Source: an uncultured Gemmatimonadales bacterium (GTDB taxonomy: Bacteria > Gemmatimonadota > Gemmatimonadetes > Longimicrobiales > RSA9). Taken from it: DNA of 64,000 bases. Shown here piece by piece: positions 20,198-59,162 of this stretch. The stretch lies in assembly GCA_963798085.1 (NCBI GenBank), contig CAWCRS010000003.1:576001-640000 (forward strand). Direction: 5' to 3'. The notes below the pieces were generated by a model that was given only the letters and a program-made list of their open reading frames with translations, made no database searches and was not told the origin of the DNA. How positions within the stretch are numbered: position 1 is the first letter of the stretch; each line of letters opens with the position of its first letter. A program made the position numbers and the translations under genes.

Positions 20198-20530
20198 ATG
20201 AACGAGAAAGAGCTGCTCGGCGAATTCGAGCACCAGGTGCTGCTGTCCGCGCTCCGGCTGGGCGATGTGGCGTTCACGTCCAGCATTGTGCTGGAGCTGG
20301 AGCGTCGCATTGAGCGGCAGGTGGCGGCGGCGGCAGTGTACATCGCGCTGCGCCGGCTGGAGGAGAACGGGCTGGTGCGGTCGGAGCTGCGCGAGGGCGA
20401 CAGTCGCGCGGGGCGGCGCGAGCGCCGGCATTTCGCGGTGACGCGCGAGGGGCTGCACCTGCTGCGCCAGTCGCGCAGCCGTTTCCTGCGCCTGTGGGAT
20501 GGCCTCGAGCTGGTGCTGGCGGAGGAATGA
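20198..20530 (+). CDS. PadR family transcriptional regulator
   Basis: LGEFEHQVLL...AVYIALRRLEENGLV...GRRERRHFAVT. Confidence 0.93.
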   Translation: MNEKELLGEFEHQVLLSALRLGDVAFTSSIVLELERRIERQVAAAAVYIALRRLEENGLVRSELREGDSRAGRRERRHFAVTREGLHLLRQSRSRFLRLWDGLELVLAEE

Positions 20531-23340
20531 TGCGCCGCGCGAGCCAGCCGAACGGCCGCAGCGCGCGGCCGCCGCGCGTGCTGCGTGTTCTGGTGCTCCT
20601 CGTCCTGCGCCTCTTCCTGCCCGCTTCGGAGCGTGCGGCCGTGGGGGTGGAGCTGGACGAGCTGCATGACGCCCGCCGGCGCGCGGCGGGACCGGTGCGC
20701 GCGGCGGTCTGGTACGCGCTGCAGCTGCCCAGTTTCGGGCTGCGGCTCTCGCTGGTCCTTGCGCGGCGCGCGTCCCGTCGCGTGCGCGGTGCCGGCTCAG
20801 CGGAATTCAGGCGACGACGTTCGTCCGGCTCTTCGTCGCGGGGCCGGCACGAGGGCTGGCTCCTGCAGCTGCCATCCGGGCTGGCGCAGGCGGGGCGTGC
20901 GCTGCGGCGCAGTCCGGCATACGCGCTGGCCACGGTGCTGACACTGGGGCTGGGTATTGCGGGTGTATCGGCGGTGTACGGTGTGGCAAACTGGGTGTTA
21001 TTGCGCCCTGTCCCCGGCGTGCGTGCGCCGGACCAGCTGCTGACCATCGTGCTGGAGAGCTTCAAGTACGCGAACAGTGCGTTCCCGATCGCGCACACGG
21101 AGCTGCAGGACCTGCGCAGCTTCTCTCCGGTGCTGTCAGGCATGGCTGCCGCCGGCGAGCAGGATGTGCACGTGGCGCCGGTCGCAGCCGGCTCCCCTGT
21201 GCGCCTTCCCGGACAGGTGGTAACAGCGAATTACTTCGACGTGCTGGGCATTGCCATGGCGGCGGGTCGTGGCTTCCTGCCCGGGGATGATGGCGAAGGT
21301 GCGCCCGCCGTCGCTGTGGTCGGTCAGAACCTGGCGCGGCGCTTCTGGGGCGACGTCGTGAGCGCAGTGGGCGCCGAGGTGCGCGTGAATGGCCTGCCGT
21401 ACACGGTGGTGGGCGTGGCGCCGCGCGGCTTTCACGGCGACGAACTGCCGGGCCGCGTGGACATCTGGTTCCCGGCAGGCGCATTGCCCGGCCTGCTCCA
21501 CGAGCCGGGGATCCTGCGCGGCGCCAGCCAGGTCTGGTCGCGGATGATTCTGCGGCCCGGGACGGGCGCACCGGTGGCAGGTATCGCCGCCCAGCTCAAC
21601 CGCGCGCTGAGCGCGAGCCGCGCGCAGCATGCCGGGGCGCCGGGATCCGTCGCCGACAGCCAGGCGCAGTTCCGTGCGCATCGTGGCATTGGTCTGTCGC
21701 CGCTGCTGCGCAGCTCCGTGCAGCGCACGCTGACGATCCTCACGGCCGCGGCCGTGCTGCTGCTGCTGCTGGCCTGCGCCAACGTGGCAAACCTCGGGTT
21801 AGCGCGGGCCGCCGTCCTGCGCGCCTCGGTCACGCTCCGCCTGGCGCTGGGCGCCGGCCACGCGCGACTCGTGCTCGAGCGACTCATGGAGAGCGCACTC
21901 GCCGGCATCGCCGGCAGCGGTCTGGGTGCGCTGCTCGCGCTGCTGGCGGTGACGGTGCTGCGGCACAGCAATCTCGGTCTGCTGGGCGTGCCGCTGGACG
22001 GCGTCGCGCTGGACCTGCGCGTCCTGGCGTTCACGATCGCGGCCGGTCTGATGGCCGGTGTACTCGCCGGCGTTCTGCCTTCGCTGGCGGTGCGTCACGA
22101 TCACGCCAGTAGAGTGCTGCGCTCTGCACGTCATGGCGACCGTCGCGGAGCCCGCGTGCGCTCCGCGCTGGTCATGGCGCAGGTTGCGCTGTCGGCAATT
22201 CTGCTCGTGGGCGCCGGTCTGCTGGCGACCACGCTGTGGCAGTTGCGACGGGTGGAAATTGGTGTGCCCGTCGACGGCGTTGTGACGTTCGCGTTCGATC
22301 CGGAACTGCAGGGTTATGACGCCGCGCGAACGGTGGACCTCGTCGCGAAGCTGCTGGACGCCGTGCGCGCGGATCCCGCGGTGTCGTCTGCCGGCATTTC
22401 CGGTTTTCCGCCTTTCGGCTCGCTGTACATTCCGCTCGGGCTCAAGCGACCGGAAGGCGACTGGCGCAAGAACCGCGTCGTCGCCCGGTCCTTCAGTGTT
22501 TCGCCCGGCTTCATGGATGCGCTCGGCGTCCGCCTCGTGGCGGGCAGGCCCATTCCAGAGGATCTCTGGCTGCAGCGGGACAGCACCGCACCGCGTGTGG
22601 CGATCCTCAATGAAACGGCTGCCCGCGCGCTGTTCCCGGAGCTGCAGCCGGTCGAAGTGGTGGGAAAGAGCGTCGACATGCGCGGCCCCGGCTATCCGCC
22701 GCTGCAGGTGATCGGTGTGGTGCGTGATGCCCGCCTCGCCAATGTCTCGGAGCCGCCGATACCGTACTGCTTCCAGCCATGGTCGCAGGGGTTCGTGAGC
22801 GGCACCGTGACGGTATACGCGCGCACGCGTGGAGATCCTCGTCCCTTCCTGCGCGCAGTGCGCGAGATCATGGCGAGAGTCGACGGCACGCTGCCGGTGT
22901 ACGAACTGCGCACCCTGCGCGAGCTGATCGACGATCAGCTTGCCGAGCCGCGCTTCGTATCATTGCTGGCAGTCGTGCTGGCCGCACTCGGCCTCGTGCT
23001 TGCCGCCGTGGGCCTGTACGGCCTGCTGGCGCACAGTGTCGCGGAGCGCACACGCGAGATCGGCATCCGCAGCGCACTGGGCGCCGTGCCTTCGCGCATC
23101 GTGAGACAGGTCGTGCGTGGCGGGCTCGGCACTACGCTTGCCGGTGCGGCGGCAGGCCTGCTCGGCGCTGCATTTCTCGGGCGCTACCTCGAGTCGCGAC
23201 TCTTCGGCGTCGAACCGCTCGACCCCTCGATCTACCTCGCCGGCATTGTGCTGCTGCTCGGTGTCGCGCTGCTCGCCAGCTGGCTGCCTGCCCGACGGGC
23301 CATGCGTGTAGACCCGATGGTAGCGCTCCGCTCGGAGTGA
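20527..23340 (+). CDS. ADOP-like orphan ABC permease
   Basis: ATGA overlap with PadR. SPAYALATVLTLGLG, LLACANVANL, GLYGLLAHSVAERTREIGIRSALGA, VDPMVALRSE. Confidence 0.92.
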   Translation: MMRRASQPNGRSARPPRVLRVLVLLVLRLFLPASERAAVGVELDELHDARRRAAGPVRAAVWYALQLPSFGLRLSLVLARRASRRVRGAGSAEFRRRRSSGSSSRGRHEGWLLQLPSGLAQAGRALRRSPAYALATVLTLGLGIAGVSAVYGVANWVLLRPVPGVRAPDQLLTIVLESFKYANSAFPIAHTELQDLRSFSPVLSGMAAAGEQDVHVAPVAAGSPVRLPGQVVTANYFDVLGIAMAAGRGFLPGDDGEGAPAVAVVGQNLARRFWGDVVSAVGAEVRVNGLPYTVVGVAPRGFHGDELPGRVDIWFPAGALPGLLHEPGILRGASQVWSRMILRPGTGAPVAGIAAQLNRALSASRAQHAGAPGSVADSQAQFRAHRGIGLSPLLRSSVQRTLTILTAAAVLLLLLACANVANLGLARAAVLRASVTLRLALGAGHARLVLERLMESALAGIAGSGLGALLALLAVTVLRHSNLGLLGVPLDGVALDLRVLAFTIAAGLMAGVLAGVLPSLAVRHDHASRVLRSARHGDRRGARVRSALVMAQVALSAILLVGAGLLATTLWQLRRVEIGVPVDGVVTFAFDPELQGYDAARTVDLVAKLLDAVRADPAVSSAGISGFPPFGSLYIPLGLKRPEGDWRKNRVVARSFSVSPGFMDALGVRLVAGRPIPEDLWLQRDSTAPRVAILNETAARALFPELQPVEVVGKSVDMRGPGYPPLQVIGVVRDARLANVSEPPIPYCFQPWSQGFVSGTVTVYARTRGDPRPFLRAVREIMARVDGTLPVYELRTLRELIDDQLAEPRFVSLLAVVLAALGLVLAAVGLYGLLAHSVAERTREIGIRSALGAVPSRIVRQVVRGGLGTTLAGAAAGLLGAAFLGRYLESRLFGVEPLDPSIYLAGIVLLLGVALLASWLPARRAMRVDPMVALRSE

Positions 23341-23408
23341 GCAGCCGCAGGCGACAATGGACTCTGCGTGATTCGACAGAACATTGCGCGCGGCGGAGCG
23401 CAGCTACC

Positions 23409-23978
23409 CTACCACACGCCGGGAATCAGCGCGGCGACTTCCGTCTCGTACGCTGCGTACTCGGGTCCGAACGTGGCGCGCATGAGCTGCTCCTCCTGCC
23501 GGAGCTTCAGCACGAAACCGACCACTAACAGCAGGAAGCCCAGTGGCGCGGCGCGCGTGTCCTGGATGAGCGTACTGGCAAGGAGTGCGAGCAACAGGCC
23601 CGTGTAGATGGGGTGACGTGTCAGGCGATAGGGGCCTGTGCGGATCAGCGCGTGGTTTTCCTTCAGCGTGACCGCGGCGCTCCACTGGCGTCCGATGTGG
23701 ATGCGCGCCCACCAGGTCCAGCCGAGGCCGACAAGGACGACGGCCAGTGCCATCCAGTCAGTTACAGGACTGGCCGGGTAGAGCGGGCGGAGCAGGATGC
23801 CGAAGGCGGTGGAATGAGCGAAGAGGAGGATCCCGCCGGCCCAGATGAAAACACTGTGTTTGAGCCTGGCCATGCCTGACTGACGCGATCGCGTGGGATT
23901 GGTCCACGCGGCCGCGGCGAGCCAGCTGAGCAGCCAGATCACCCACAGCGCGCCCAGCGTGGTTTCGATTCCTTTCAT
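23409..23978 (-). CDS. Isoprenylcysteine carboxyl methyltransferase (ICMT/PEMT) family membrane protein
   Basis: MKGIETTLG start. HALIRTGPYRLTRHPIYTG, EEQLMRATFGPEYAAY. Confidence 0.88.
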   Translation of the reverse strand: MKGIETTLGALWVIWLLSWLAAAAWTNPTRSRQSGMARLKHSVFIWAGGILLFAHSTAFGILLRPLYPASPVTDWMALAVVLVGLGWTWWARIHIGRQWSAAVTLKENHALIRTGPYRLTRHPIYTGLLLALLASTLIQDTRAAPLGFLLLVVGFVLKLRQEEQLMRATFGPEYAAYETEVAALIPGVW

Positions 23979-24070
23979 TCCGCCATCCCCCGCGTCCGCG
24001 CGTCGAACGATCAATCCGGTAGCATCTGCTTCTCGCCTTGCGGACTGGCGTTCTCCGCCGACGGGCAACG

Positions 24071-24491
24071 CTAACGCCCGGCTTGCTTCGCCGCCTCCAG
24101 CCGCAGGAACCCCTGAATGAAGAAGAGACCGAAGAAGATGTTGCTGGGGGTCGCCGCCAGCAGACTGATGGTACCGGCGGTGGTCATGCTGGAGGCGTGC
24201 AGCACGTACGTCACGTCGGCGAAGATTTCGCCCAGGCGCATGCCGCCGACGATCACCAGCCAGTACGGCCGGTGGCGCCAGCGTATCAGCGCAATGGAGA
24301 TGGAACAGTGAGAACGCGGCCCATGTCGCGCCGGTCCGGGCGAGCAGTCCCTGCGGGTCGTCGAGCGGCGCGTTGTGGAAGAAGTGGAACCAGAATGCGG
24401 GGAAGAAAAGGGCCCAGCAGGCGAGGATCGCGTCCCACACCGTGAAGAACAGCAGGAACGCGGTCGTGAGGAAGCGGCGGATCAGGGACAT
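24071..24491 (-). CDS. Four-TM membrane protein of unknown function; frameshift near 24300
   Basis: N-terminal MSLIRRFLTTAFLLFFTVWD...RTGATWAAFSLF joins ...RWRHRPYWLVIVGGMRLGEIFADVTY...AKQAGR stop in another frame. Confidence 0.7.
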
Positions 24492-24518
24492 GTCGATGCC
24501 TTTCTGGTCGCCAGAGGG

Positions 24519-25697
24519 TCAGGGCTGCGTGGCGTCGGGTGGTGTGGCAGGCGCTGCGCGCGTTTCCTGATAGCGGAGCAGCTCCGCTTCCAGCTCCGGC
24601 CCGATAACACCATTGTCATCAAAGAACGGCTGGTACGTCGCCGCCGGCAGCGCACTGCGTGTCTTCTGACTGAGTGCGTAGCCCAGCTGCCGTGCCGCGG
24701 TGAACGTGGTGCCGGGAAAGTCGCGGGCTGCCTGGCCGGCTCGTGTGGCCACCCAGTTGCCGGGATTCGCGCCCATGGCGCCTGCGAGCAGGGCGAGGAG
24801 GCGCGCGTCGCGTGAGGCGGGATCGGTCTGCTCGAAGGTCACGGCGCCCACGCTCACCGCGTGCGTTTCCGACCAGGCGTGCGTGTTCTTCTCGAGCGGC
24901 GTCGTGCGCTCGTCGATGTAGGGGATCCAGCGCAGATCGAACGCAATGTCGCCGGCGAGGCAGCGTTCACGCCAGTCATCAGTCAGATAGTGCGCGCCCG
25001 GTCGCAGCGCGCGGTGGTGGTTTACATTGGTTGCGGGCACGAACGTGAACTTGCCATGCGTGTCGCCGGCCTCGACCACGCCGGTCCAGTACTGCTGCAC
25101 TGCGCTGCTGGAAAGGACTGTGCGGCCCGTCTGCCGCGCGATGTGCAGGTACAGCTCCGTTGCGCGCAACAAACCGAGGCGCTGGCGAAGTGCGTGGAAC
25201 AGCTTCGCCTGTGATGCGGTCAGGTTGCCGACATCGAGCTGACCCACAGTGCCGAACGGGATATCGGCGCCGGCCGCGGCCGCGGTTGCGGCGAGCAGCG
25301 CGACGAATTCAGCGGCCGTATCCGTGGGTGCGCCCGGATCATTGATGGCGAGGAAGTCAACACGCTCGCGGTTGCGTGTCTGGAATGCGACCATGAGCCC
25401 GAGAAAATCCGGGTCCGTCTCCAGGTGCGGGCAACCGAGCCCTGTCGAGATGCGGCCGATGCCCGTGGCGCGCGCGCCCGGCTGGAACAGACCCAGGCCA
25501 TCCAGCGCAGGAGGCAGCGCGGCCGCGGCCGCGAATGAAACGCGACCGGCAGCGAGCTGCTGCTGGTGTGCGCCGCGATCCGTGCCGCCTAACCGTGCGT
25601 TCTCACGCAGCACGCGCTGGATCCCGGGCATTTCCGATACGATCGCGGCCAGCGCCTGCCGTTCGTCGTCGGTTCCATTGAAGCGCCAGCCGGCCAT
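24519..25697 (-). CDS. Catalase-fold (mini-catalase / catalase-related hemoprotein-like) protein
   Basis: Ordered motifs RGAH (distal His, 25566-25577), GRISTG, PDFLGLMV, DFLAIN and RQLGY (RxxxY proximal Tyr, 24678-24692). Confidence 0.65.
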   Translation of the reverse strand: MAGWRFNGTDDERQALAAIVSEMPGIQRVLRENARLGGTDRGAHQQQLAAGRVSFAAAAALPPALDGLGLFQPGARATGIGRISTGLGCPHLETDPDFLGLMVAFQTRNRERVDFLAINDPGAPTDTAAEFVALLAATAAAAGADIPFGTVGQLDVGNLTASQAKLFHALRQRLGLLRATELYLHIARQTGRTVLSSSAVQQYWTGVVEAGDTHGKFTFVPATNVNHHRALRPGAHYLTDDWRERCLAGDIAFDLRWIPYIDERTTPLEKNTHAWSETHAVSVGAVTFEQTDPASRDARLLALLAGAMGANPGNWVATRAGQAARDFPGTTFTAARQLGYALSQKTRSALPAATYQPFFDDNGVIGPELEAELLRYQETRAAPATPPDATQP

Positions 25698-25707
25698 GTC
25701 GTCCGCC

Positions 25708-27324
25708 TCAGAGGGTCTTCAGGTATTCGATCAGCGCGTTCTTCTGGTCACTGCCCAGCGTCGTACCGTACCTGTGGCCGTGATTGCTGTTGCCGCGGAG
25801 GCTGGTGTCGTAGCGCCAGCCTTCGTCCGACGGCATGCAGCCCCACACGGAAGTGCCGGCGACGGGTGCGGCGGGCAGACTGGCATTGTCGCCTGCACAA
25901 CGCGCCGCGATGAAGCCCATGTTGAAGCGGTCCAGCACATCATAGCCGCGGTAGAACGAAGCCGGTCGCCTGTCCTCGGGATCGAGCAGTGCGCGCACGG
26001 TGGGCACGGAGCCGTTGTGCAGATAGGGCCCGCGCAGCCAGAGCCCATCAAGCTGGAGCGCGATGTAGCCGGGCCTGTCGGGTTTGCCCATGGGTGTGCG
26101 GTCGATTCCGGCCAGGTGGCGCACCGCGCGGTTGGCGCTGTCTGCGGCTTCGCGTGTCCAGGCATTGGCGCGCTCCGCGTCGGTACCGATCTCCTCGAGC
26201 GGGATCACCGTTCCTAACCGGTTGTTGCGGCCGCTGGCGTGGCATTCCGCGCACGCCGTCTCGAACACCGCCTGGCCTCGCCTGGCCAGCGTGGAGTCGA
26301 TGGGCAGCGGGTACCGTGGCGGCGGCAGCTTCATGAGCCAGTCCTCGATGTCTTTCATGCGCTGGCGGAAGAAGGCGGAATTCTTCGCCTGCAGGCCCAG
26401 CGCAGAGTCGATGATCACCGACCGATAGGAGGTGGTGGCGCCGTCCAGGTTCATGAGCATCAGGTGCGTCGCATCGGTGCCGGCCTTCGACCAGTCCGCG
26501 GTCAGCGCGAAGTCCGTGGGCGGCCATACACGACCCTGCTGCACACGCGTTTCCAGGTGCCAGATGGATGGGAAATCCGTGTTATCTATGCTGCTGTCCA
26601 TTGGCAGCTGGAGGAAATTGAACTTGGTGAGGTTCATGGGCGCGTCCCGGCCCGGTCCCCAGGCCGGCCGCTGCGCCGCCCACTTGAAGCCCTCGCCCTG
26701 CTCCGCGAGTCGCTTCTTCGCCAGCGGTATGTAGAGGAACTTGTACAGCAGCCGATCGACGAAGCCGAGCGGGTACGCCATGTCGATCTGGGTGATGATC
26801 GTCTCGGCGCCGAAGCGGGAATCGGCCGCGGCCCGGCTGAAGAAGTTGAGCAGACCCTGCACATCCGCGGTGTTGCTGCCGCCGGCGGCGACAATGACAG
26901 GCGTCGAGTCCGGGTGCACGCGGTACTGTGTCGCGTGACAGAGCGCACAATTGAAGCCCACGCGATCGAACCCGACTGTCTTTTTCGAGAAGCCGACGGG
27001 CAGCTCCGTACCCGGTTGCCAGGGAATGCCCAGCGATGCGTAGCCGCCGGGACCGGGCAGCAGGTCATCGAAGATGCGTGGCAGCACGACCACGATCCAG
27101 TAGGGAATGCCCGCCTGTGCTTCGGCGCCGATCGAGCCGTGCAGGAAATTCGCTTCCTGATTGTCCGTGATCCACTTCGGCTGGGGCAGCTCGCGGAAGA
27201 ATTTGTACCAGCCGAATATGCCGCTGGGAACGGCGATGATGACAAGTATGACCAGGATCCGCACGAGCCACGTCTTCCAGCCGGCTTTCTTTTTCGCTGC
27301 TGCTGTCCCCGTGCTGTCGCTCAC
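25708..27324 (-). CDS. Membrane-anchored di-heme c-type protein, RoxA/MauG/bCcP superfamily
   Basis: N-terminal TM. CALCH (26935-26949), CAECH (26239-26253), LWLRGPYLHNGSVPT, GNSNHGH..G, ALIEYLKTL. Confidence 0.88.
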   Translation of the reverse strand: MSDSTGTAAAKKKAGWKTWLVRILVILVIIAVPSGIFGWYKFFRELPQPKWITDNQEANFLHGSIGAEAQAGIPYWIVVVLPRIFDDLLPGPGGYASLGIPWQPGTELPVGFSKKTVGFDRVGFNCALCHATQYRVHPDSTPVIVAAGGSNTADVQGLLNFFSRAAADSRFGAETIITQIDMAYPLGFVDRLLYKFLYIPLAKKRLAEQGEGFKWAAQRPAWGPGRDAPMNLTKFNFLQLPMDSSIDNTDFPSIWHLETRVQQGRVWPPTDFALTADWSKAGTDATHLMLMNLDGATTSYRSVIIDSALGLQAKNSAFFRQRMKDIEDWLMKLPPPRYPLPIDSTLARRGQAVFETACAECHASGRNNRLGTVIPLEEIGTDAERANAWTREAADSANRAVRHLAGIDRTPMGKPDRPGYIALQLDGLWLRGPYLHNGSVPTVRALLDPEDRRPASFYRGYDVLDRFNMGFIAARCAGDNASLPAAPVAGTSVWGCMPSDEGWRYDTSLRGNSNHGHRYGTTLGSDQKNALIEYLKTL

Positions 27325-27344
27325 GTTTTGCCAGCCTCTCCGGC

Positions 27345-28979
27345 TCAGAATGTCTTGAGGTACTCGATGAGCGCTGCCTTCTGCGCGGCCGTCAGTGTGG
27401 TGCCGTACTCGTGTCCGCCATTGCCGTTGCCGCGCACCTTCGTGTCGTAGCGCCAGCCGTGCTTCTCCGCATCCGGTCCGCTGGTCACGAAGCCCACGCG
27501 ATCGTAGTCGTAGACGTCGTACCCGATCCAGAACAGCTGCGGCCGGTTACGCGCCGGCTCCAGCAGCGACTGCAGATCGGGCACCGAGCCGTTGTGCAGG
27601 TAGGGCGCGCGCAGCCACAGGCCGTCCAGAGGCATGTTGGCGTAGCCGTTGGTCTTCCGAAAGTGCGTGAAGCGGGCGGGATAACAGTTCTTTACATTGT
27701 CGGGATGTTCGCGGCAGTGCTCCTCGTCCGCCGGGAACCCGTCATAGAGCGAGTTCTGCGCTTCGGCCAGCACTTCGGTGTAGGAGTCGAGGCGGGAGCG
27801 GTCGGTGCCGATGTACTCGAGCGGGGTGACCGTGCCCACGCGGCTGCCATCGCCTTCCGTGCGGAACGGCGGTTTGCCGTTGCCGTGGCAGGACCAGCAG
27901 TACTGCCGGTAGATGGGCTCGCCCTGCGCCGCCAGTTCCGGGCGGAGATGCTCGGGCGGGAATGCGGGCGGCTTCGCCTGGTCCCACAGATACGCCGCGA
28001 TGCGCAGCACACCCGCCTTGTCGATGGTGGTGGGCGTCGCACCCGTGCCGAAGCCGGCGCTGAGGTTGCGCTCGTTGACGGATGTGTTGTTGCCGTCCCA
28101 GTGCAGCTGCATGCCCTCCTTGTACTTCTGATTCCACACCGCCGGGAAGTCCGCATTGCCCACCTTTTCCCGCTCCGGCGCCTTCTCCATGGGAAAGCCG
28201 AGCAGCGCCTTGGGCGGGTCGAACGTGTCCACGCGTCCCGGCCCCCAGCTCAGCGTGTTCACGAACGACATGCGTGACGTGAGCGTGAGCAGCTGCTCGC
28301 GCAGCAGTGTAATGCCGAGATAGCGGAACACGAAGCGGTCGACAGGATTCAGCGGATCGGGCCGGTACACGCCGGCTGGCAGATGCGCGGCGGTTCGCCG
28401 CGTCTCCAGCTCGTCGACCTTGGGCATGATGCGGGTCGAGCGGAACTTCCAGTCGGCCGCGGCGCGGTCCAGGAACTCGGCGAGCGCACCGAGGTCGAAG
28501 GTATTCGCCGGCATCCCGAGGATGATCTGTCGCTTGCCATCCGTTGACGGCCGTACCGATCCCGTGTGACAGACGGAGCACGTGAAGTACACGCGGTCGA
28601 TGCCCTGCACGCGGCGCATGGACATGCCCACGGGCAGATCGAACACCGGGTCCTTGCCATCCTCGTAGATCATGCCGAACGAGAGAAAGCCGCGGCCGGC
28701 CTGATGATCGGGCAGGTACTCCGGAAACATTTCGGGCAGCGCGATCCAGATCCAGTAGGGAAAACCGAAGCCGAATTGCGTGCCGAAACCGCGCTCGCCG
28801 CCGGTCGAGCCGTACTTGAAGTGCTCCTGGACGTCTTCGTACGTGACCGGCTTGTCATTGGTGAGCCGCACGGTCAGGTAGATGGCAAGGCCGATGAACG
28901 CGAGTACGCAGACGACGCCGATCCAGAATGTGATGTTCGCGAGTTTCTTCCGCGTCCGCTCCAGGAACGAGTCCGCCAT
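27345..28979 (-). CDS. Membrane-anchored di-heme c-type protein, RoxA/MauG/bCcP superfamily (paralog)
   Basis: N-terminal TM. CSVCH (28566-28580), CWSCH (27885-27899), LWLRAPYLHNGSVPD, GNGNGGHEYG, ALIEYLKTF. Confidence 0.88.
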   Translation of the reverse strand: MADSFLERTRKKLANITFWIGVVCVLAFIGLAIYLTVRLTNDKPVTYEDVQEHFKYGSTGGERGFGTQFGFGFPYWIWIALPEMFPEYLPDHQAGRGFLSFGMIYEDGKDPVFDLPVGMSMRRVQGIDRVYFTCSVCHTGSVRPSTDGKRQIILGMPANTFDLGALAEFLDRAAADWKFRSTRIMPKVDELETRRTAAHLPAGVYRPDPLNPVDRFVFRYLGITLLREQLLTLTSRMSFVNTLSWGPGRVDTFDPPKALLGFPMEKAPEREKVGNADFPAVWNQKYKEGMQLHWDGNNTSVNERNLSAGFGTGATPTTIDKAGVLRIAAYLWDQAKPPAFPPEHLRPELAAQGEPIYRQYCWSCHGNGKPPFRTEGDGSRVGTVTPLEYIGTDRSRLDSYTEVLAEAQNSLYDGFPADEEHCREHPDNVKNCYPARFTHFRKTNGYANMPLDGLWLRAPYLHNGSVPDLQSLLEPARNRPQLFWIGYDVYDYDRVGFVTSGPDAEKHGWRYDTKVRGNGNGGHEYGTTLTAAQKAALIEYLKTF

Positions 28980-29006
28980 GTCAGCCTCTCGCCGGTGGCG
29001 TGTGTG

Positions 29007-29474
29007 TCATGCGGCGGCCGCGGTCGGGAACTCGAGCATGAACAGCGCAATGCGGCGTTTGCCCCAGAACACCTGGCCCAGGTACACACCGGGCGAGACC
29101 ATGCGGATCTCATTGCGGATGAAGCGCGCCACCACAGAGGTCTTCGAATAGTCGAGAATGATCGCCGGGCCGGTGCAGAACCAGCTCTGGTCTTCGTAGA
29201 CGCGGGCGCGGATCAGCGGAAAGCCCAGGATGCTGATGCGATTCTTCAGGTCGCCGCTCTCGGGCCGGAAGATCTTGCCCTTCCACATGAACACGCGGAT
29301 CAGTCCGTGGATGACCCGGTCCAGGAGCGAGCCCGGCAGCACCATTGCGGTGCCGCGTGCGGGACCCGCCGGAATCGGGCCCGGCTGACTCTCGCGGAAG
29401 ATGCGGTCCAGCTCGTTGCGCGGCGCAACCGCCATTTCCCGCGCACTCACCTGTGATGCGATGTTAGTGCTCAT
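29007..29474 (-). CDS. Small conserved-looking hypothetical protein, possible lipocalin-like beta-barrel
   Basis: 155 aa. LDRIF...WKGKIF...LDYS...IRNEIRMVSPGVYLG. Start overlaps the P450 stop. Confidence 0.7.
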   Translation of the reverse strand: MSTNIASQVSAREMAVAPRNELDRIFRESQPGPIPAGPARGTAMVLPGSLLDRVIHGLIRVFMWKGKIFRPESGDLKNRISILGFPLIRARVYEDQSWFCTGPAIILDYSKTSVVARFIRNEIRMVSPGVYLGQVFWGKRRIALFMLEFPTAAAA

Positions 29475-30751
29475 GATATCCCCTCCGTGACTGTGAAGCG
29501 CGCTTCCTTCGCCGGGAAGGACACGGGCAGCGGATCGCGTGCGAGTCGCTGACTGCGCGCGGCCACCCGCAGCTCCACGATGAGTCGCACGAGCGCCGCT
29601 CGACACACGAACAGGATCAGGTCACGGCCCGGGCAGGCGCGCGGGCCGCGCAGGAACAGGTTGGATGCGGCGGCCGCCGCATCGGGCTGCGTCTCGAGCC
29701 AGCGCTCGGGGCGGAAATGGTGCACGGTCGGGCCGAGCGCGTCGTCGCGCTGGAGCAGCGGGAACCAGTGCACGTACTCGGTCTCGCCCTTCGACGTCTG
29801 TGCATGGTGGAAGGTGCGCGTGACCGGCGGGAACAGTCGACCGGTCTCGAGGATGCACGCGTTCAGGTACGGCAGGCGCTCGATGGACGCGGCGCGATCC
29901 GCCGGCCCCGCGCCCGCAATCTCCTCGCGCACGCGCCGTCGCACTTCCGCGCGCGACGTCACGAGCGCCAGCGTGCGCGCCAGCAGGTCCGTGCCCGATC
30001 CGGTGAACGTGAACATCCAGTGCGGAATCTGTTCGAGCAGTGCGTCGAGGCTGGTGCCGGGCGCCAGGGCGCGGGCGTGTGCAATCAGTGCAGGCGACGA
30101 TGCAGCTTCCGCCTCCCAGCACGCTTCCAGTGTGTCGTAGAGCCGGCGCCGCCGCTCGCGGTAGCGGAACCCGAGCAGCTTGCGGCGCATTGGCGACTGC
30201 ACGGCATCGAACAGGACGCGTACGTCCTCGGCCGGATCCACGCCCGCGGGTACGCTGCGGCCCAGCACGATAGGCACCATGGCGCGGCCCATGGCGGCGC
30301 GCAGGCCGTGCACATTCGTCACCGGCAGGGCGAACGCGGCACGCACGGCGTCCAGGTAGTGCTGCGCGGCCGGGTGAGCCTCGCCGGTGTGCAGGACGTG
30401 CTCGTTGAAGGGCCGCAGCTCGTGCCACGCCTCGCCATTGGCAATGGTGAGTGCGTGCGGCGCCAGGAAGCTCATCGCGCCGGTCTTGAGGCGCCCGGCC
30501 GTTGCACCCGCGGGCGAGGGTGGTGTGGAGAGGAGCGCGTCGGAACGCCCGCGATCGGCGACGATCTCGAACTCCGTGTTACCCAGCCTGAAGCCGGGAT
30601 CGCCGCCACGGTCCCGGCGCACCACATTGCGCAGCCAGTGACACAGTATCTCTCCGGTGTCGCGGGGCCGGCGCAGCAGGCCCGAGCCCAGGCGCGCGCC
30701 CAGGCGGACGACGTCGCCAGCTCCGATCCGTGCGCCACCGCCCTTCGCCAT
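29471..30751 (-). CDS. Cytochrome P450, atypical I-helix
   Basis: ETGR (ExxR), FRPERW, FLRGPRACPG heme-Cys motif. I-helix FTGSGTD. ATG one base after the peroxidase stop. Confidence 0.88.
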   Translation of the reverse strand: MAKGGGARIGAGDVVRLGARLGSGLLRRPRDTGEILCHWLRNVVRRDRGGDPGFRLGNTEFEIVADRGRSDALLSTPPSPAGATAGRLKTGAMSFLAPHALTIANGEAWHELRPFNEHVLHTGEAHPAAQHYLDAVRAAFALPVTNVHGLRAAMGRAMVPIVLGRSVPAGVDPAEDVRVLFDAVQSPMRRKLLGFRYRERRRRLYDTLEACWEAEAASSPALIAHARALAPGTSLDALLEQIPHWMFTFTGSGTDLLARTLALVTSRAEVRRRVREEIAGAGPADRAASIERLPYLNACILETGRLFPPVTRTFHHAQTSKGETEYVHWFPLLQRDDALGPTVHHFRPERWLETQPDAAAAASNLFLRGPRACPGRDLILFVCRAALVRLIVELRVAARSQRLARDPLPVSFPAKEARFTVTEGIS

Positions 30752-30752
30752 G

Positions 30753-33609
30753 TCAGCGGCCCTTGAAGGACGGATCCTGCTGTGCTTCCGCGCGAGCGCG
30801 CCAGCCAATGCCGTAGTAGCTGCCACGATCGCGCCCCCATGGATCGAAGGCGTTGATCACGCCTTTCAGCTCGGGCGCCAGCTCGGGCATGGTGCGCAGC
30901 AGGATGCGCTTCATGGGCGACACGACTTCCTCGTGTCCGTTGGGTTTGCCTGCCTCGTTCTCGACGTCCGGTCCGTTGTTGTTGACCCAGTCGACGCCCA
31001 GCTGCGAGTAGAACTCGGGCCGGAAGCTGGATGTGAAGAAGCGATCGCTGAAGAGGCGCCGCGACGCGTTGATGATGAAAACCGTGAACTGCGTCTCGGA
31101 GATGGCGAAGCCGTGCGGCCGCGTGGACTCGGCCAGCCAGCCCACCACGGTATCCAGGTCCTCGATGTTGTCCACCACGGTGCCATCGGGATGACCCAGG
31201 CAGTCGGTGACGAACTTGCCGTTCAGCTTCTGCGCGCCGGTGATCTGCTTCGAGTCGTCGCATCTGTGCGTGCCGTAGATCGCGCGCAGCTTCTGCACGT
31301 ACGCCTGTTCCCGCTGCTTCTCCGCCGATGTGTCGGGCAGGCTGACGTTGATGAAGTCATCGAAGCTGCTCAGGCTCTGCAGCCCGTACTGGCGGCGGAA
31401 CTCGTTGAAGCGGGGAATGCCGCGCTCGCGGTCGCGCAGGATGTCGAGTGCGGCCACATCCAGTTGATTCGTTCTGCTGTGCAGCCGCGGCATGGGCAGG
31501 TTCTGCAGGAACATGGGGTGATTGTCCAGCGTCAGCAGGCCCAGCCGCTGCCGGCCCATGGTAACAGCCCAGTTCGCGAGCCCGCCATCGTGCATGGCAT
31601 TGGTTGCCAGGCCGCGGAATGTGTTCACCACAGGCACCGGCTTCTCGACCTCGTTCGGTCTTCTGGTATTCGCGGAACTCGAGCAGGTCGGGCACCAGCG
31701 GGTGCAGGCGGTATACGGTGACGAACTCCTCCGGGAAATTGAAGGGCGAGCCGAAGTGGTTCACACCGCGATTCAGGTCCTTCGGCTGTCCGGCATTCCA
31801 GCGGCGTTCTGGCTGCCCAGGCCGAAGATGCCGGCGCCCGATGCGAACACGGAGTACCACAGGGTCTCGTCGCGTTCGTTGAAGGACTGTCCGAAGTGCT
31901 GCACGGCGGCCTTCTCGAGTGCGCGTGACACGCTGTTATCGCCGCGCACCAGGCCGTGCCAGTTCGCGTTCATGGCGCTGGTAGAGCGGCTCGTCGTAGA
32001 GCAGCTGCGTGGTCCATTCGATGGTGTGGATCTTGGCGATCTCCGCCGCCACCACCAGCCGCGCCACCTCGAACAGCTCGTCGGCGACTGACATCGCGGT
32101 AGCGGATCACGGAATCGGGACGCGCGGGGTCGCGCAGTCCGCAGTCCGCGTCCGGACTGGCCGACGTCCGCCTGCGGAACTCATCGACGAAGAGATTGTG
32201 CTCGCGCGAGAAGACATTGTGCAGGAAGCTCAGGCCGATCGACCAGTTGTCCGGAAACGCCACCGATTCCTGCCCGGCCCACGCGGGATGGATCGGGATC
32301 CGCGGCGGCGAACAACGGCAGGTAGCCCTGCTGGTCGCCGGCCGCATCGTGACCCGGCAGCTGCACCATCAGCAGCTTCGCGGGATCGTTGGGGTCGCGC
32401 TTCACGCGCAGCGCGGAGCGATCGCTGTAGCCATAGATCTGCGAGGCGTCCCACCACGCGGTGTTGCTGTTGCGCGTGGTCTGGTACGCGCGCGCGAGGT
32501 ACGTGCACGTTGTCCTTCTGGAACGTCGGGCGGCGCGTGTCGTGTCGGCCGATCAGCGCCGCGTCCATGCGGTCATCGGGACGGCAGCCGAGCTGGGCGA
32601 TCTCCGCTTGCGTCAGCGGCGCGCTGCGCCCCGTTGTCCAGCTTTGCCGCGCAGCCGACCGCCATCCATGCGCCGGCGCATTCTGTCCCTCGTCGAGGTG
32701 CGAGAACCAGTCGTGCGTCATGAACTGGATCCAGAACGCCGCAAGCACGTTGAAGAACGGCGCCTTCATGTAGTCGCAGTGGGCGTCGGCGGCCGCGTCC
32801 TGCCCGTTCTGGCACTGCGCCGCAGCGCGACTGCTGGCGCGTGAACAGCTCGCGGCTGATGACTGCGGGTCCGGCTTCAGCAGACCGATGCCGGTCGCCG
32901 TGGCGGTTGCGCACGAGCTCGGTCGCGGCCGAGCAGCGGGAAGGTCTCCTCGAACTGCACGTTGCGCGCGAACAGGTGTTCGGTGGAACCCATCAGCGGA
33001 TTGAGGATGTCATTGCAGATGCCGGTCAGGGTACGGTAGCGGATCAGCTCGCCGCCGCAGACCTGCTCGCTGGCCGCGCCGCCCACCTCCGATAGTGCGG
33101 ATTGTCCGGCGGCAGTCGCATCGCCGGCCAGACCTTCACGGAGCGCCCGGGCGACGCCGTCGCGGCCGTTCACATAGGCCTGAAATGTGTAGTTGTCGAA
33201 CAGGTTGAACTTGAGCAGCTCCATGCGCTGGTACTCGAGGTCGAGCAGGGCGCCATCGACGCCGCGGCCGTCGGGCGAGACCGCCCGAGACGGCGAGAGC
33301 CAGGTCATGAAGACGTGATGACGCATCGCCGGCGCCCCAGTAGTGGCTCCAGTCGACCCACGGCGTCTGCCGGTTGGCCAGCGCGCCCGAGCCGCCGCGG
33401 CAGCGCGCCGTGAACTCCTTCACCTTGCCCAGGAAACGGTCTTCGCGTTTCTCCGCTACCGTACGGAATCCCGCTCGTACCAGCGTGTAGCACGAGCCCA
33501 GCGAGTGCACCTCCTCACGCACGTTGCGCGATGCTGCGTAGAGCAGCACAGGCACCGCCAGCAGAATGAGGATGACTACACCGAGATTCCGCCAGGTGGT
33601 ACGCTTCAT
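30753..33609 (-). CDS. Peroxidase-cyclooxygenase superfamily heme enzyme, fatty-acid alpha-dioxygenase-like; many frameshifts
   Basis: Reconstructed across frames: YRTLTGICND..NPLMGS, FARNV, WIQFMTHDW, NTAWWDASQIYG, FSREHN, KIHTIEWT, EEFVTVYRLHPL, RDRERGIPRFNEFRR, GFAISET, SRRLFSDRFFT. N-terminal TM/signal; AAGGAG RBS. Confidence 0.88.
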
Positions 33610-33733: not shown

Positions 33734-33787
33734 ATCATTGAGCGGCTGACAGCCGCTGTCAACGTCCACCTGCGTCGCCTGTCAACG
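33734..33787 (-). promoter_or_regulatory. Candidate promoter/operator region of the heme-enzyme operon
   Basis: Minus-strand TTGACA (33762-33757)-N17-AATGAT. Palindrome TGACAG-CCG-CTGTCA at 33747-33761. CTGTCAACG repeated. Confidence 0.5.
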
Positions 33788-33983: not shown

Positions 33984-35057
33984 TCAGGATGGCGTGTGGC
34001 CGTTCGCCTCCTCCCATGCCCGGCGCACGGCTTCGCCGGTGAAGAAGTCCCAGTAGCGAGCGCTCACGTCGTCGTTCACGAACCACGCACGCTGAGCCGA
34101 GAGGTCCACACGCTTGCGTGTGTCGTCGAGATTGAGGTGATCGCGGGTCGCGGCGTCCACCGCCGTGACGATCGCGCCCACCAGTGCCTGGACGTGCTGC
34201 AGATGCTCCAGCGCCGCGCCGCCTTCGCGCACCGCGCCGTGACCGGGAATGATGGCCTTGAAGCCGAGCTGCTGGAACGCTCGCAGTGTTTCCAGCTCGG
34301 CGTGCGGCGAGCCATCGCCCAGGTAGGGCAGATCATCGAGCAGGTCACCCGTGATCAGGATCTTCTCGGCGGGCAGCCACACCACGAGGTCGCCGCGCGT
34401 GTGCCCTGCGAAGTGAAGCAGTCGGACTTCCCGCCCGTCCCGCAGCGTCAGCGTGTCGCCCACCGTCCGTGTCGGCAGGACGAAGCCATGCACGGCCTGA
34501 ATGCGGGCGAGGTAGGCCCTGCGCCGGTCGACGCGGCCGCGCAGCTGTTCCTTCTGCGCTTCGCTGAGCCGCTTCCCATCCGCCTGACCGCTGGCCAGCG
34601 CCGCATTGGCCAGTGCCAGCCACTCGGGAATGTCCTTCAGCTCCTTCTCGTGATCGGGGATCGCGCGCGTTTCCATGTCTTCGCGCACGCTCTCCTGCGC
34701 GATGAACTCGGCATCGGGGAACGCGTCGCGATAGACTTCGTTGCCCTGCACGTGGTCGCCGTGAAAGTGCGTGTTGACCACCCAGCGCACGGGCTTGTCC
34801 GTGATCTCGCGCACCCTCGCCAGCACCTCGCGCGCACCCGCTGGCGAGTTCTGCGTGTCCACGATCAGCACACCGTCGGACAGCACGATAACAGCCGAGT
34901 TCGCGTCGTCAATGCGCAGCGCCGCGGGCTGCAGCACCGCGTACACGCCGTCCGCCACCTTGCGCACGGACATCGCCGTCTGGGCTGCGGCGGGAGCACA
35001 CCACAGGACGGAGAGGCTGAGAGCAGCGGCGACAGAGCGGGGGTAGCGGCTCGCCAT
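33984..35057 (-). CDS. Secreted metallo-beta-lactamase-fold hydrolase (cyclase-like)
   Basis: Signal peptide; NTHFHGDH, GHTRGD, TGDL, IIPGHG. Confidence 0.88.
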   Translation of the reverse strand: MASRYPRSVAAALSLSVLWCAPAAAQTAMSVRKVADGVYAVLQPAALRIDDANSAVIVLSDGVLIVDTQNSPAGAREVLARVREITDKPVRWVVNTHFHGDHVQGNEVYRDAFPDAEFIAQESVREDMETRAIPDHEKELKDIPEWLALANAALASGQADGKRLSEAQKEQLRGRVDRRRAYLARIQAVHGFVLPTRTVGDTLTLRDGREVRLLHFAGHTRGDLVVWLPAEKILITGDLLDDLPYLGDGSPHAELETLRAFQQLGFKAIIPGHGAVREGGAALEHLQHVQALVGAIVTAVDAATRDHLNLDDTRKRVDLSAQRAWFVNDDVSARYWDFFTGEAVRRAWEEANGHTPS

Positions 35058-37817: not shown

Positions 37818-38185
37818 GACGCCTGCCCCTGCGCCGCCACCTTCGCGACGGCCGCGACGTAGCGCTGCCAGTCGTCCTGCGCTTTCGTCAGTGCCCGCCG
37901 CCCGGCCGCTGACAGCCGGTAGTACTTCGCGCGCCGCCCCCGCTCCGACACGGCCCAGTCGCCTGACACCCAGCCTCGCCGTTCCAGCCGGTGCAGCGCG
38001 GGATAGAGCGCACCCTCCTCCACCACCAGCTCATCCTGCGTCGCCTCGCGGATCGCATCCAGGATCTCGAAGCCGTGCAGCTCGCCCCGGCCGCCCAGTG
38101 TCTGCAGCAGCAGCAGTTCCAGTGTCCCGGCCAGCAGATTCATGCGACGCACCATGGGGCTGCGCTCCGTGTTCCGTGCGCTCAT
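37814..38185 (-). CDS. PadR family transcriptional regulator (start may be 38155 or 38143)
   Basis: GTLELLLL...HGFEI...EEGALYPALHRLE...RRAKYYRL. Confidence 0.93.
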   Translation of the reverse strand: MSARNTERSPMVRRMNLLAGTLELLLLQTLGGRGELHGFEILDAIREATQDELVVEEGALYPALHRLERRGWVSGDWAVSERGRRAKYYRLSAAGRRALTKAQDDWQRYVAAVAKVAAQGQAS

Positions 38186-53030: not shown

Positions 53031-53056
53031 ACGCGCCGGACAGGAAGGCAGGCCGG

Positions 53057-59157: not shown

Positions 59158-59162
59158 GCGGC

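What the first reader, a model, noticed from the sequence alone, without database searches (positions are those of the whole stretch)
23409..33609. Eight-gene heme-rich operon resembling an undescribed bacterial oxylipin / fatty-acid oxygenation pathway
Seen: eight co-directional genes with gaps of 1, -4, 27, 20, 10, 27 and 92 bp. Order: alpha-dioxygenase-like peroxidase, atypical P450, small putative beta-barrel, two di-heme c proteins, catalase-fold protein, 4-TM protein, ICMT-family methyltransferase. That is five hemoproteins from four unrelated folds, with no ferredoxin or reductase. Known: COX-like dioxygenases make fatty-acid hydroperoxides. These are processed by P450 domains (fungal Ppo/linoleate diol synthase DOX-CYP fusions) or catalase-related proteins (coral allene oxide synthase; Nostoc 10S-DOX partner lyase). 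RoxA-type di-heme proteins oxidatively cleave C=C bonds. Inference: this operon combines all these hydroperoxide-making and hydroperoxide-consuming modules in one pathway to a lipid signal or defence metabolite, possibly methylated at the end. I do not know of a characterised cluster with this composition, but I cannot search.
Basis: partly seen in the sequence, partly recalled or inferred. Interest (0 to 1): 0.92.

Follow-up and report, generated by a model that had tools for sequence, protein, structure and literature searches.

The report
Bacterial fatty-acid-oxidising haem-enzyme gene cassette
Eight tightly packed genes are present, and five of them recur in the same order in other bacteria; they encode a likely exported plant-type fatty-acid alpha-dioxygenase plus haem enzymes predicted to process its peroxide product, pointing to an untested bacterial route to oxidised lipids.

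Summary
The eight genes, their order and gaps are real. The peroxidase gene carries about 17 single-base breaks; near-identical short-read contigs lack the extra bases at the places they show (7 bases, 6 breaks), so these look like assembly errors. It is an alpha-dioxygenase, not a COX/Ppo type: the catalytic Tyr, both haem His and the His/Arg carboxylate clamp are kept in 119-120 of 120 homologues. It adds an export signal and five Cys pairs. Only a five-gene core is conserved (dioxygenase, P450, small protein, two RoxA-like dihaem proteins): full order in five other genomes. The catalase-fold gene is an occasional partner. The 4-TM and methyltransferase genes appear in no related locus, so terminal methylation is unsupported. 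The P450 lacks the acid of its acid-alcohol pair but shows no CYP74 kinship. The dihaem pair recalls the P. aeruginosa diol-synthase pair; direct comparison was impossible. Best reading (0.5): envelope alpha-oxygenation of free fatty acids, with swappable hydroperoxide-consuming enzymes in two mixable modules. My ten paper searches found no characterised equivalent. The scan has noted kin cassettes on other DNA before.

The parts
33734..33762 (-). Sigma-70-like promoter match (TTGACA-17-AATGAT) about 125 bp upstream of POX
   Evidence: 1 found, 1.3 expected in shuffles; well placed but at chance level.
30753..33609 (-). POX: alpha-dioxygenase-type haem protein (about 950 aa when intact), predicted exported, five conserved Cys pairs; broken by about 17 single-base indels in this assembly, likely assembly errors
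   Evidence: 672 of 977 columns identical to intact L012 homologue, no in-frame stop; rice alpha-DOX E 1e-56; (active-site residues, Cys pairs, N-terminal anchor); AAGGAG upstream of ATG.
29471..30751 (-). Divergent cytochrome P450 (426 aa): ExxR and Cys373 intact, I-helix AGxET replaced by TFTGS; no signal peptide; starts 1 bp after the POX stop
   Evidence: (463 homologues).
29007..29474 (-). C: 155-aa protein of no Pfam family, weakly GXWXG/DUF4334-like; fused to D in some genomes; candidate lipid carrier (inferred)
   Evidence: fusion ORFs in L010, L017; fusions P0244, P0251, P0378.
27345..28979 (-). D: membrane-anchored RoxA-like dihaem c protein (544 aa); keeps the RoxA Trp302, Phe317 and His641 equivalents and the PYLHNG motif; His293 where RoxA has Phe301
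25708..27324 (-). E: paralogous membrane-anchored dihaem c protein (538 aa, 36% identical to D); lacks the inter-haem Trp (MNLDG for LHWDG)
24519..25697 (-). F: small catalase-fold haem protein (392 aa), invariant R41, H44, R82, N119, R336, Y340, R347; Ala before the distal His; accessory member
   Evidence: (636 homologues); linkage.
24071..24491 (-). G: about 139-aa membrane protein, one frameshift in the assembly; not a conserved member
23409..23978 (-). H: ICMT/PEMT-family membrane methyltransferase (189 aa); not a conserved member
   Evidence: (below the NF040696 cut-off).
23385..23402 (-). Hairpin after H, facing the convergent ABC-permease gene
   Evidence: 6 terminator-like sites found, 5.2 expected; chance level.

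Best explanation
The five conserved genes likely form a cell-envelope fatty-acid oxygenation cassette in which a predicted exported alpha-dioxygenase would add O2 at carbon 2 of free fatty acids and the neighbouring haem enzymes would likely consume the resulting hydroperoxides. Step 1 (inferred from an intact active site, about 0.8): fatty acid freed by lipases is clamped by His/Arg and oxygenated by a Tyr radical to a 2-hydroperoxy acid, which otherwise decays to a one-carbon-shorter aldehyde or a 2-hydroxy acid. Step 2 (inferred, about 0.5): the acid-less P450 uses the hydroperoxide as its own oxidant without ferredoxin, giving 2-hydroxy or dihydroxy acids; catalase-fold proteins such as F can join or fill this slot. 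Step 3 (inferred, about 0.5): the periplasm-facing pair D/E is a second oxygenase/isomerase module like P. aeruginosa PA2077/PA2078, with D the redox-active partner. C likely carries lipid. G and H are passengers here. The two modules probably share a substrate class, not necessarily one linear route (about 0.35). Shown: genes, folds, residues, synteny. Not shown: any activity, localisation or transcript.
For: Alpha-DOX residues named in PMC8720084 (passages) map onto intact homologue L012, are present in the window's read-through and are conserved in 120 homologues: H157 119, H311 120, W315 120, T316 120, F375 120, Y379 120, H382 120, R559 119. Best PDB hits are alpha-DOXs (E 1e-56) against E 4e-5 for myeloperoxidase. 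N-terminal hydrophobic stretch in 110 of 120, lipobox-like in 48, ten Cys in 118-120 of 120. POX is in the same locus in 10 of 11 loci that carry this P450 (the 11th contig starts at the P450). The full order POX-P450-C-D-E holds in L009, L010, L012, L113 and L116. P450 I-helix: BM3 AGHET aligns without gaps to TFTGS; T248, F249, S252 in 115 of 115; Gly at the acid position in 102 of 115, Asp in 1. In L038 a catalase-fold gene sits in the P450's slot, and its family hits coral allene oxide synthase at E 1e-8; a member is fused to a D homologue (P0309). Lipase-type neighbours: Tle1/DUF2235 (L014, L118), PGAP1-like (L115, L116), patatin (L097, Rhizobium pRL11). D keeps the inter-haem Trp in every D row; E lacks it in its 13-row clade. 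PA2077 likewise has W251 and PA2078 S243 (PMC4496055, parts 2-4 of 6 read). Cytochrome c maturation genes exist in the genome.
Against: No activity, transcript or localisation data. The P450 model's nearest structures are ordinary monooxygenases (CYP725A4, CYP51, CYP97; at most 21% identity), with no CYP74 or PGIS among the rows listed. It has Ser, not the Asn of LDS/AOS/PGIS, at the distal position, and Arg rather than His in the Cys loop (PMC13049297 passages). The genome has many Fe-S-motif frames that could supply electrons in trans (noisy). POX is predicted outside and the P450 and F inside the membrane, so an unstable hydroperoxide would have to cross it. D/E and C occur without POX or P450 in L013-L016, L019-L021, L097/L099/L101 and Rhizobium, and POX+P450 occur without D/E in L023, L024 and L117. 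Only 7 of 81 F loci hold a cluster gene, and F was not found in 5 of 5 core-bearing genomes searched. Six of 19 E-clade rows keep the Trp, and E lacks the Phe317 equivalent that PA2078 keeps. F has Ala where coral AOS has Thr66. Lipase neighbours were noticed, not tested against a background rate.
Confidence: 0.5

Rival explanations
1. Same first chemistry, but the purpose is catabolic alpha-oxidation: shortening beta-blocked (3-methyl, isoprenoid-derived) or very long fatty acids for growth, with the other haem enzymes clearing peroxide by-products rather than making a signal.
For: Alpha-DOX products are n-1 aldehydes and 2-hydroxy acids (PMC9305512 passages). An exported enzyme with lipase neighbours suits scavenging of outside lipid. 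GMC oxidoreductases recur near D/E and G homologues.
Against: No aldehyde dehydrogenase, beta-oxidation or transporter gene is a conserved neighbour in the ORF lists I inspected (one AMP-binding enzyme next to L009). The cassette is rare and patchy: 6 of 400 genomes of the order.
Confidence: 0.2
2. The genes are co-located oxidative modules with different, partly non-fatty-acid substrates: D/E cleave C=C bonds of isoprenoids like RoxA, and the P450 is a conventional monooxygenase fed by ferredoxin in trans.
For: D's only PDB sequence hit is RoxA (E 7e-12) and it keeps the W302/F317/H641 equivalents. The modules occur separately. The P450 model resembles sterol, carotenoid and terpenoid P450s. 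Catalase folds also do non-lipid chemistry (chanoclavine synthase among F's hits).
Against: D and E score 58-88 bits on RoxA/B/C models with cut-offs of 900-1000. They have His or Asn where RoxA has Phe301. The P450 lacks the proton-delivery acid in 114 of 115 and travels with POX in 10 of 11 loci.
Confidence: 0.15
3. It is a lipid-peroxide and oxygen defence island: the enzymes burn O2 on fatty acids and destroy organic peroxides, with no dedicated product.
For: Close POX homologues carry labels from sulfur bacteria and Desulfuromonadales, groups I recall as low-oxygen dwellers. F's best structural match is a catalase-related protein. PA2078 was proposed to detoxify PA2077's hydroperoxide.
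Against: A peroxide-making dioxygenase with an intact substrate clamp is a poor defence enzyme. Invariant, unusual active-site residues in the P450 and F suggest specific chemistry.
Confidence: 0.1
4. In this strain POX is a true pseudogene and the cassette is decaying.
For: About 17 frameshifts fall in POX and none in P450, C, D, E or F. About 11 of the 17 are not covered by any listed indel row.
Against: No in-frame stop and all catalytic residues kept. A near-identical contig differs by 1 substitution and 3 indels in 305 bases, an error-like ratio. Seven left-out bases match six breaks predicted independently from the homologue. The L009 gene shows similar breaks.
Confidence: 0.04

Closest known systems
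Plant and cyanobacterial fatty-acid alpha-dioxygenases (rice 4KVJ/4KVK, Arabidopsis 4HHR; CalDOX, LepDOX; PMC8720084)
   Same: Peroxidase-cyclooxygenase fold; Tyr379, His157, His382, His311, Arg559, Thr316, Trp315, Phe375/549/552 equivalents conserved.
   Different: About 960 aa against about 620-650; N-terminal anchor or lipobox and five Cys pairs (predicted periplasmic); encoded with a P450 and dihaem proteins.
P. aeruginosa oleate-diol synthase pair PA2077/PA2078 (FadCcp; PMC4496055)
   Same: Tandem RoxA-like dihaem paralogues with two CXXCH motifs and the PY(L/F)HNGSVP motif, similar haem spacing (227 and 232 aa against 245 and 235), inter-haem Trp kept in one partner and lost in the other.
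   Different: D/E are about 540 aa with a predicted uncleaved anchor; the Trp-keeping gene comes first; E lacks the Phe317 equivalent; they sit with an alpha-DOX and a P450. I could not align them to PA2077/78 directly.
Fungal DOX-CYP fusions (Ppo, linoleate diol synthase, DOX-AOS; PMC13049297)
   Same: A peroxidase-COX-family dioxygenase tied to a P450 with an atypical I-helix and no encoded redox partner.
   Different: Separate genes, predicted on opposite sides of the membrane; alpha-type rather than mid-chain dioxygenase; no distal Asn; RxC rather than HxC loop.
Nostoc 10S-DOX with catalase-related lyase; coral cAOS/cHPL; Mycobacterium 33-kDa catalase-related protein (3E4W/3E4Y)
   Same: F is a small catalase-fold protein with the R64, H67, R102, N137, Y353, R360 equivalents.
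   Different: Ala in place of Thr66; 19% identity to 3E4Y; most F homologues stand outside such clusters.
Rubber oxygenase RoxA (4B2N), RoxB, RoxC
   Same: Dihaem core with W302, F317, H641 equivalents in D.
   Different: Far below family cut-offs; membrane-anchored, paired, His293 in place of Phe301.

Membership tests
Fatty-acid alpha-dioxygenase | Catalytic Tyr379 with stacking Phe375 and proximal His382 | tested here: met
   EEFVTVYRLH in the window and 120 of 120 homologues.
Fatty-acid alpha-dioxygenase | Distal His157 | tested here: met
   FMTHDW; 119 of 120.
Fatty-acid alpha-dioxygenase | Carboxylate clamp His311/Arg559 and Thr316 | tested here: met
   120, 119 and 120 of 120; residues from PMC8720084; numbering mapped by hand.
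Fatty-acid alpha-dioxygenase | O2-dependent formation of (R)-2-hydroperoxy fatty acid | not testable with these tools
   Needs an assay.
Fungal DOX-CYP fusion (Ppo/LDS) | Dioxygenase and P450 in one polypeptide | tested here: not met
   Stop, 1-bp gap, new ATG; intact homologues end at about 960 aa.
Fungal DOX-CYP fusion (Ppo/LDS) | Distal Asn and HxC Cys loop of LDS-type P450 | tested here: not met
   Ser252 and R371-x-C373 in 115 of 115; criteria, where Asn is said to be dispensable in some members.
CYP74 (AOS/HPL) | Insertion in the Cys loop (feature recalled, from no call) | tested here: not met
   FLRGPRACPG aligns without gaps to BM3.
CYP74 (AOS/HPL) | Closest structural neighbours are CYP74 | tested here: inconclusive
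   None among the listed rows; an unlisted family is not excluded.
Cytochrome P450 superfamily | P450 fold, ExxR, Cys thiolate | tested here: met
   (Z 32.8, rmsd 3.0, 373 aligned).
Conventional electron-fed P450 monooxygenase | I-helix acid-alcohol pair (A/G)Gx(D/E)T | tested here: not met
   TFTGS; acid absent in 114 of 115, Ser at the Thr place.
Catalase-related hydroperoxide enzymes (cAOS/cHPL) | Catalase fold with distal His/Asn, proximal Tyr, haem Args | tested here: met
   R41, H44, R82, N119, Y340, R347 in 117 of 117; equivalence by motif order and the 3E4W alignment.
Catalase-related hydroperoxide enzymes (cAOS/cHPL) | Thr66 before the distal His | tested here: not met
   Ala43 in 117 of 117; criterion from PMC5617202.
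Rubber oxygenase RoxA/B/C | NCBIfam cut-off | tested here: not met
   58-88 bits against 900-1000.
NF040606 di-heme cytochrome c peroxidase subfamily | Score over 150 bits | tested here: met
   D 178.4, E 161.5 as proteins; in the genome scan only D was marked over the cut-off.
FadCcp (PA2077/PA2078) | Tandem paralogues, two CXXCH, MauG motif | tested here: met
   against Table 1 of PMC4496055.
FadCcp (PA2077/PA2078) | Same clade as PA2077/PA2078 | not testable with these tools
   No tool returned those sequences; the paper's alignment is an image.
FadCcp (PA2077/PA2078) | 10S-dioxygenase and diol-synthase activity | not testable with these tools
   Needs an assay.
GXWXG/DUF4334 (protein C) | Pfam match | tested here: inconclusive
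   0 of 18 members match PF14231/PF14232 at E<=1; Atlas nearest named cluster 0.87, a lead only.
Protein-S-isoprenylcysteine methyltransferase (H) | NF040696 cut-off 160 | tested here: not met
   83.8 bits; PF04140 is met.

The most novel reading that the evidence does not exclude
A widespread, modular bacterial oxylipin system starts from a periplasmic, disulfide-bonded alpha-dioxygenase. Its P450 is the first self-sufficient enzyme acting on 2-hydroperoxy fatty acids (an alpha-hydroperoxide isomerase making 2,n-diols), interchangeable with catalase-fold enzymes, and it is coupled to a diol-synthase-like dihaem pair to make a new class of bacterial lipid signal.
Probability: 0.25. Interest if true: 0.88.

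Novelty: new variant of a known kind. Interest (0 to 1): 0.64.

Why it matters
The characterised bacterial oxylipin routes I found in the papers read are few: the P. aeruginosa diol-synthase pair, the Nostoc 10S-DOX/lyase pair and isolated cyanobacterial alpha-DOXs studied as biocatalysts. None of those passages gives a physiological role or genomic partner for a bacterial alpha-DOX. This cassette supplies candidate partners and makes that question testable. It also offers three uncharacterised enzyme families with invariant, unusual active sites: an acid-less P450 (463 homologues), a Pfam-less mini-catalase (636) and a paired dihaem oxygenase. A cultured carrier of the five-gene core exists (Thioalkalicoccus limnaeus, L010). 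A P450 that acts on alpha-hydroperoxides without electrons would be new chemistry, useful for making aldehydes and hydroxy acids.

Tried and rejected
(1) Eight-gene conservation: G had no hit and H one weak hit (L037, 27%, about 5 kb from a lone F gene on the other strand) among all non-self loci held. H was not found in 5 of 5 genomes tried, an empty search without a positive control. (2) G as a homologue of the membrane domain fused to D-type proteins (9 of 151 sequences carry it): hhalign probability 0.4%, E 0.14, no better than background frames; rejected. (3) P450 kinship to CYP74/PGIS by structure: none listed. (4) Fold or family for C: no PDB hit at E<=10, no Pfam; my first C profile was contaminated by two unrelated membrane proteins, so its two weak hits (P0369, P0270) are discarded. 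(5) Getting PA2077/PA2078 sequences: not among the listed plasmid hits, 0 of 14 control genomes, representatives unnamed. (6) Expression: no RNA holder listed. (7) Promoter and terminator scans at chance level. (8) GC and GC3 show no foreign signature. (9) Flank synteny in relatives: the upstream metallo-hydrolase was not found in 3 genomes, so the insertion point is unknown. (11) The dihaem tree is the quick version without bootstrap. (12) Ten paper searches listed no paper describing this cluster; subscription journals are largely missing from the library, and Brash 2014 was not held and is cited through a review passage.


Full report
OBSERVATION. The window is C3:576001-640000 of a 6.2-Mb, 12-contig, 67% GC genome. 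The nearest homologues of its dihaem genes come from Gemmatimonadota, so that phylum is my inference for the host. Eight minus-strand genes run from 33609 to 23409 in the order given, with gaps 1, -4, 27, 20, 10, 27 and 92 bp. I call them POX, P450, C, D, E, F, G and H. Five are haem proteins of four folds, as claimed. GC and GC3 match the flanks.

THE BROKEN PEROXIDASE GENE. POX is in fragments in the assembly. A frameshift-aware alignment to the intact 960-aa homologue in L012 needs 17 single-base events, gives 672 identical of 977 columns and meets no stop. One of three public runs holds short contigs of a near-identical strain. They lack the window's extra base at 9 places: 7 in POX (31660, 31801, 31805, 32620, 32664, 32671, 32829), one in G (24296) and one between G and H (23987). 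The 7 match six breaks predicted from the homologue. Each rests on one contig of depth 2-6, and about 11 breaks have no such row. One of these contigs differs by 1 substitution and 3 indels in 305 bases, which fits sequencing error better than decay. I therefore read POX and G as intact in life (inference).

POX IS AN ALPHA-DIOXYGENASE TYPE, PREDICTED EXPORTED. The intact homologue hits rice and Arabidopsis alpha-DOX at E 1e-56 and 7e-55, myeloperoxidase at 4e-5, and no COX at E<=0.01. The residues listed for rice in PMC8720084 (passages) map onto it; I counted a +3 offset by hand. In the best 120 of 2353 homologues: H157 119, H311 120, W315 120, T316 120, F375 120, Y379 120, H382 120, F549 118, F552 119, R559 119; M325 varies. 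His311/Arg559 hold the carboxylate next to the Tyr radical, which directs attack to C2. The product can decarboxylate to an n-1 aldehyde or give a 2-hydroxy acid (PMC9305512, passages). New features: a hydrophobic N-terminus in 110 of 120, a lipobox-like motif in 48, a strict Tat motif in 1, and ten Cys conserved in 118-120 of 120. These predict a periplasm-facing, disulfide-bonded enzyme. P450 and F homologues have such an N-terminus in 1 of 115 and 0 of 117.

THE P450. It has 463 homologues and models at pLDDT 94.5. ExxR and Cys373 are invariant. The profile aligns without gaps to BM3, placing AGHET on TFTGS: Phe for Gly, Gly for the acid (102 of 115; Asp in 1), Ser for Thr. Loss of the acid fits an enzyme that does not need proton-coupled O2 activation (established P450 mechanism, my knowledge). 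It is not diagnostic. Structure searches list ordinary P450s at no more than 21% identity and no CYP74 or PGIS. PMC13049297 (passages) describes Asn at that site in LDS, plant AOS and PGIS but Thr in 8R/9R-AOS, so Ser neither proves nor excludes self-sufficiency.

D AND E. Both have one N-terminal helix, two CXXCH motifs and PYLHNG, pass NF040606 and fall far below the RoxA/B/C cut-offs. Against RoxA (4B2N, E 7e-12), D keeps the W302, F317 and H641 equivalents and has His for F301. Among 46 dihaem rows, every D row keeps HWDG. All 19 rows of the E clade replace the His with Asn; 13 also lose the Trp and 6 keep it (quick tree). PMC4496055 (parts 2-4 of 6 read) describes PA2077 (10S-dioxygenase, W251) and PA2078 (diol synthase, S243) as tandem RoxA-like paralogues. 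The parallel is striking, but I could not obtain their sequences, so it is a resemblance, not membership.

F AND C. F heads a family of 636 proteins with no Pfam hit. Its model matches the 33-kDa catalase-related protein 3E4Y (E 2e-13; Z 24.4, tied with true catalases). R41, H44, R82, N119, R336, Y340 and R347 are invariant in 117 of 117. They correspond to the cAOS residues in PMC5617202 (passages), except Ala for Thr66. C has no family and a weak GXWXG/DUF4334 lead. It is fused ahead of D's anchor in L010, L017, P0244, P0251 and P0378.

SYNTENY. D found 14 genome loci. POX+P450+C were in 4 of them, P450+C in a fifth short contig, and F, G or H in none. The P450 profile matched 6 of 400 genomes of the order, all with POX and C nearby, 5 with D; two of the six duplicate L009 and L012. 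It matched only the centre genome among 401 in a second order. The same-genus genome (91% complete) had no match. Over 11 distinct P450 loci, POX is present in 10 and C follows the P450 in 10; L023/L024 and L115/L116 are close kin. The full order POX-P450-C-D-E holds in L009, L010, L012, L113 and L116, and up to the contig end in L115. L017 has POX-P450 inverted. F lies with cluster genes in 7 of 81 loci (4 of the 20 metagenome loci of 8 kb or more); its two best-ranked loci (64-66% identity) are among them. It was not found in 5 of 5 core-bearing genomes. No locus I viewed has all six. Two locus tags four steps apart on equal-length contigs (P0208, P0023; also P0444) hint at one more six-gene case (inference). 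Variants show two modules. POX+P450+C occur with other catalase-fold genes and no D/E (L023, L024, L117). C+D+E occur with further dihaem genes and no POX (L013-L016, L097, L099, L101; D+E in L019-L021 and Rhizobium pRL11). L118 has POX-C-D-E-lipase-F without the P450. In L038 a catalase-fold gene takes the P450's place; that family hits coral allene oxide synthase at E 1e-8. Lipase-type genes flank L014, L097, L115, L116, L118 and pRL11; I did not test this against background. G homologues occur in 6 of 300 genomes, two directly behind GMC oxidoreductases and none beside cluster genes within 1.5 kb. H has no link.

MECHANISM. I commit to envelope alpha-oxygenation of free fatty acids (0.8 for this step), with hydroperoxide-consuming haem enzymes downstream: the acid-less P450 without ferredoxin (0.5), catalase-fold proteins as optional or substitute consumers, and D/E as a second oxygenase/isomerase pair (0.5). 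Overall 0.5. The main difficulty is topology: an unstable hydroperoxide made outside would have to reach cytoplasmic enzymes. The independent occurrence of the modules argues against one obligatory sequence of steps. Rivals: catabolic alpha-oxidation (0.2), unrelated co-located modules (0.15), peroxide/O2 defence (0.1), pseudogene (0.04). Final methylation by H is unlikely (under 0.1).

NOVELTY. Dioxygenase plus hydroperoxide-consuming haem enzyme is a known kind of system. This combination, the exported alpha-DOX and the P450 family were not described in any paper listed by my ten searches; I saw listings and abstract starts for most, and passages or sections for six papers. The library lacks most subscription journals, and I read no supplements. 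Earlier notes of this scan report kin cassettes on other genomes; they are unchecked and not counted as support. Verdict: new variant of a known kind, interest 0.64.

Noticed in passing
L023:5850-7151, L024:3777-5078, L117:139-1377, L038:382-1515: A second catalase-fold family in related clusters. It has Asn or Gln where the distal His is expected (read from the alignment), its profile hits coral allene oxide synthase (E 1e-8), and one member is fused to a dihaem domain (P0309).
   Followed up: partly
L023:7158-8459, L024:5085-6386, L117:2881-4299: A conserved 433-aa protein without Pfam hit sits beside that catalase-fold gene in POX-P450 clusters lacking D/E.
   Followed up: no
L013:13153-18832, L097:5618-7804, L021:5220-7730, L124:12330-15119: Third and fourth, larger dihaem proteins (730-930 aa) accompany D/E where POX and P450 are absent.
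   Followed up: partly
L124:10410-10841, L125:9557-9970, L126:8536-8940: A membrane domain of about 130 aa occurs free beside, or fused in one or two copies to, D-type proteins (9 of 151 sequences); no detectable homology to G.
   Followed up: yes
L125:6133-12466: A Qingshengfaniella plasmid carries a more distant peroxidase-family gene, an FAD-binding gene, a D homologue and an alpha/beta hydrolase together.
   Followed up: no
window 42919-43773: Patatin-like phospholipase about 9 kb from the cassette; a possible source of free fatty acid, linkage untested.
   Followed up: no
window 5680-7788, 14557-17358, 20198-23340, 35187-38185: Four MacB/FtsX-type ABC permease genes, two with adjacent PadR regulators, flank the cassette.
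   Followed up: no
window 18489-19913: Berberine-bridge-enzyme-like FAD oxidase (PF01565 + PF08031) 3.5 kb beyond H; such enzymes release H2O2 (recalled), which alpha-DOX can use for priming. Not tested in related loci.
   Followed up: no
window 33984-35057: Secreted-looking metallo-beta-lactamase-fold hydrolase just upstream, same strand, 375 bp gap; below all NCBIfam cut-offs shown and absent from related cluster loci.
   Followed up: partly
window 49614-55511: Lysine/diaminopimelate operon in which M20 peptidase+Asd and aspartate kinase+DapB each read as one ORF; either true fusions or assembly frameshifts.
   Followed up: no
window 57733-61915: GlcD/GlcE/GlcF-like FAD oxidase and Fe-S CCG genes (glycolate or lactate oxidase type, label recalled).
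   Followed up: no
P0435, P0451, P0471, P0494, P0500: Close POX homologues (64-71%) carry labels from Thioalkalivibrio, Thioalkalicoccus, Ca. Tenderia, Deltaproteobacteria and Desulfuromonadales, suggesting spread across phyla including low-oxygen dwellers.
   Followed up: no
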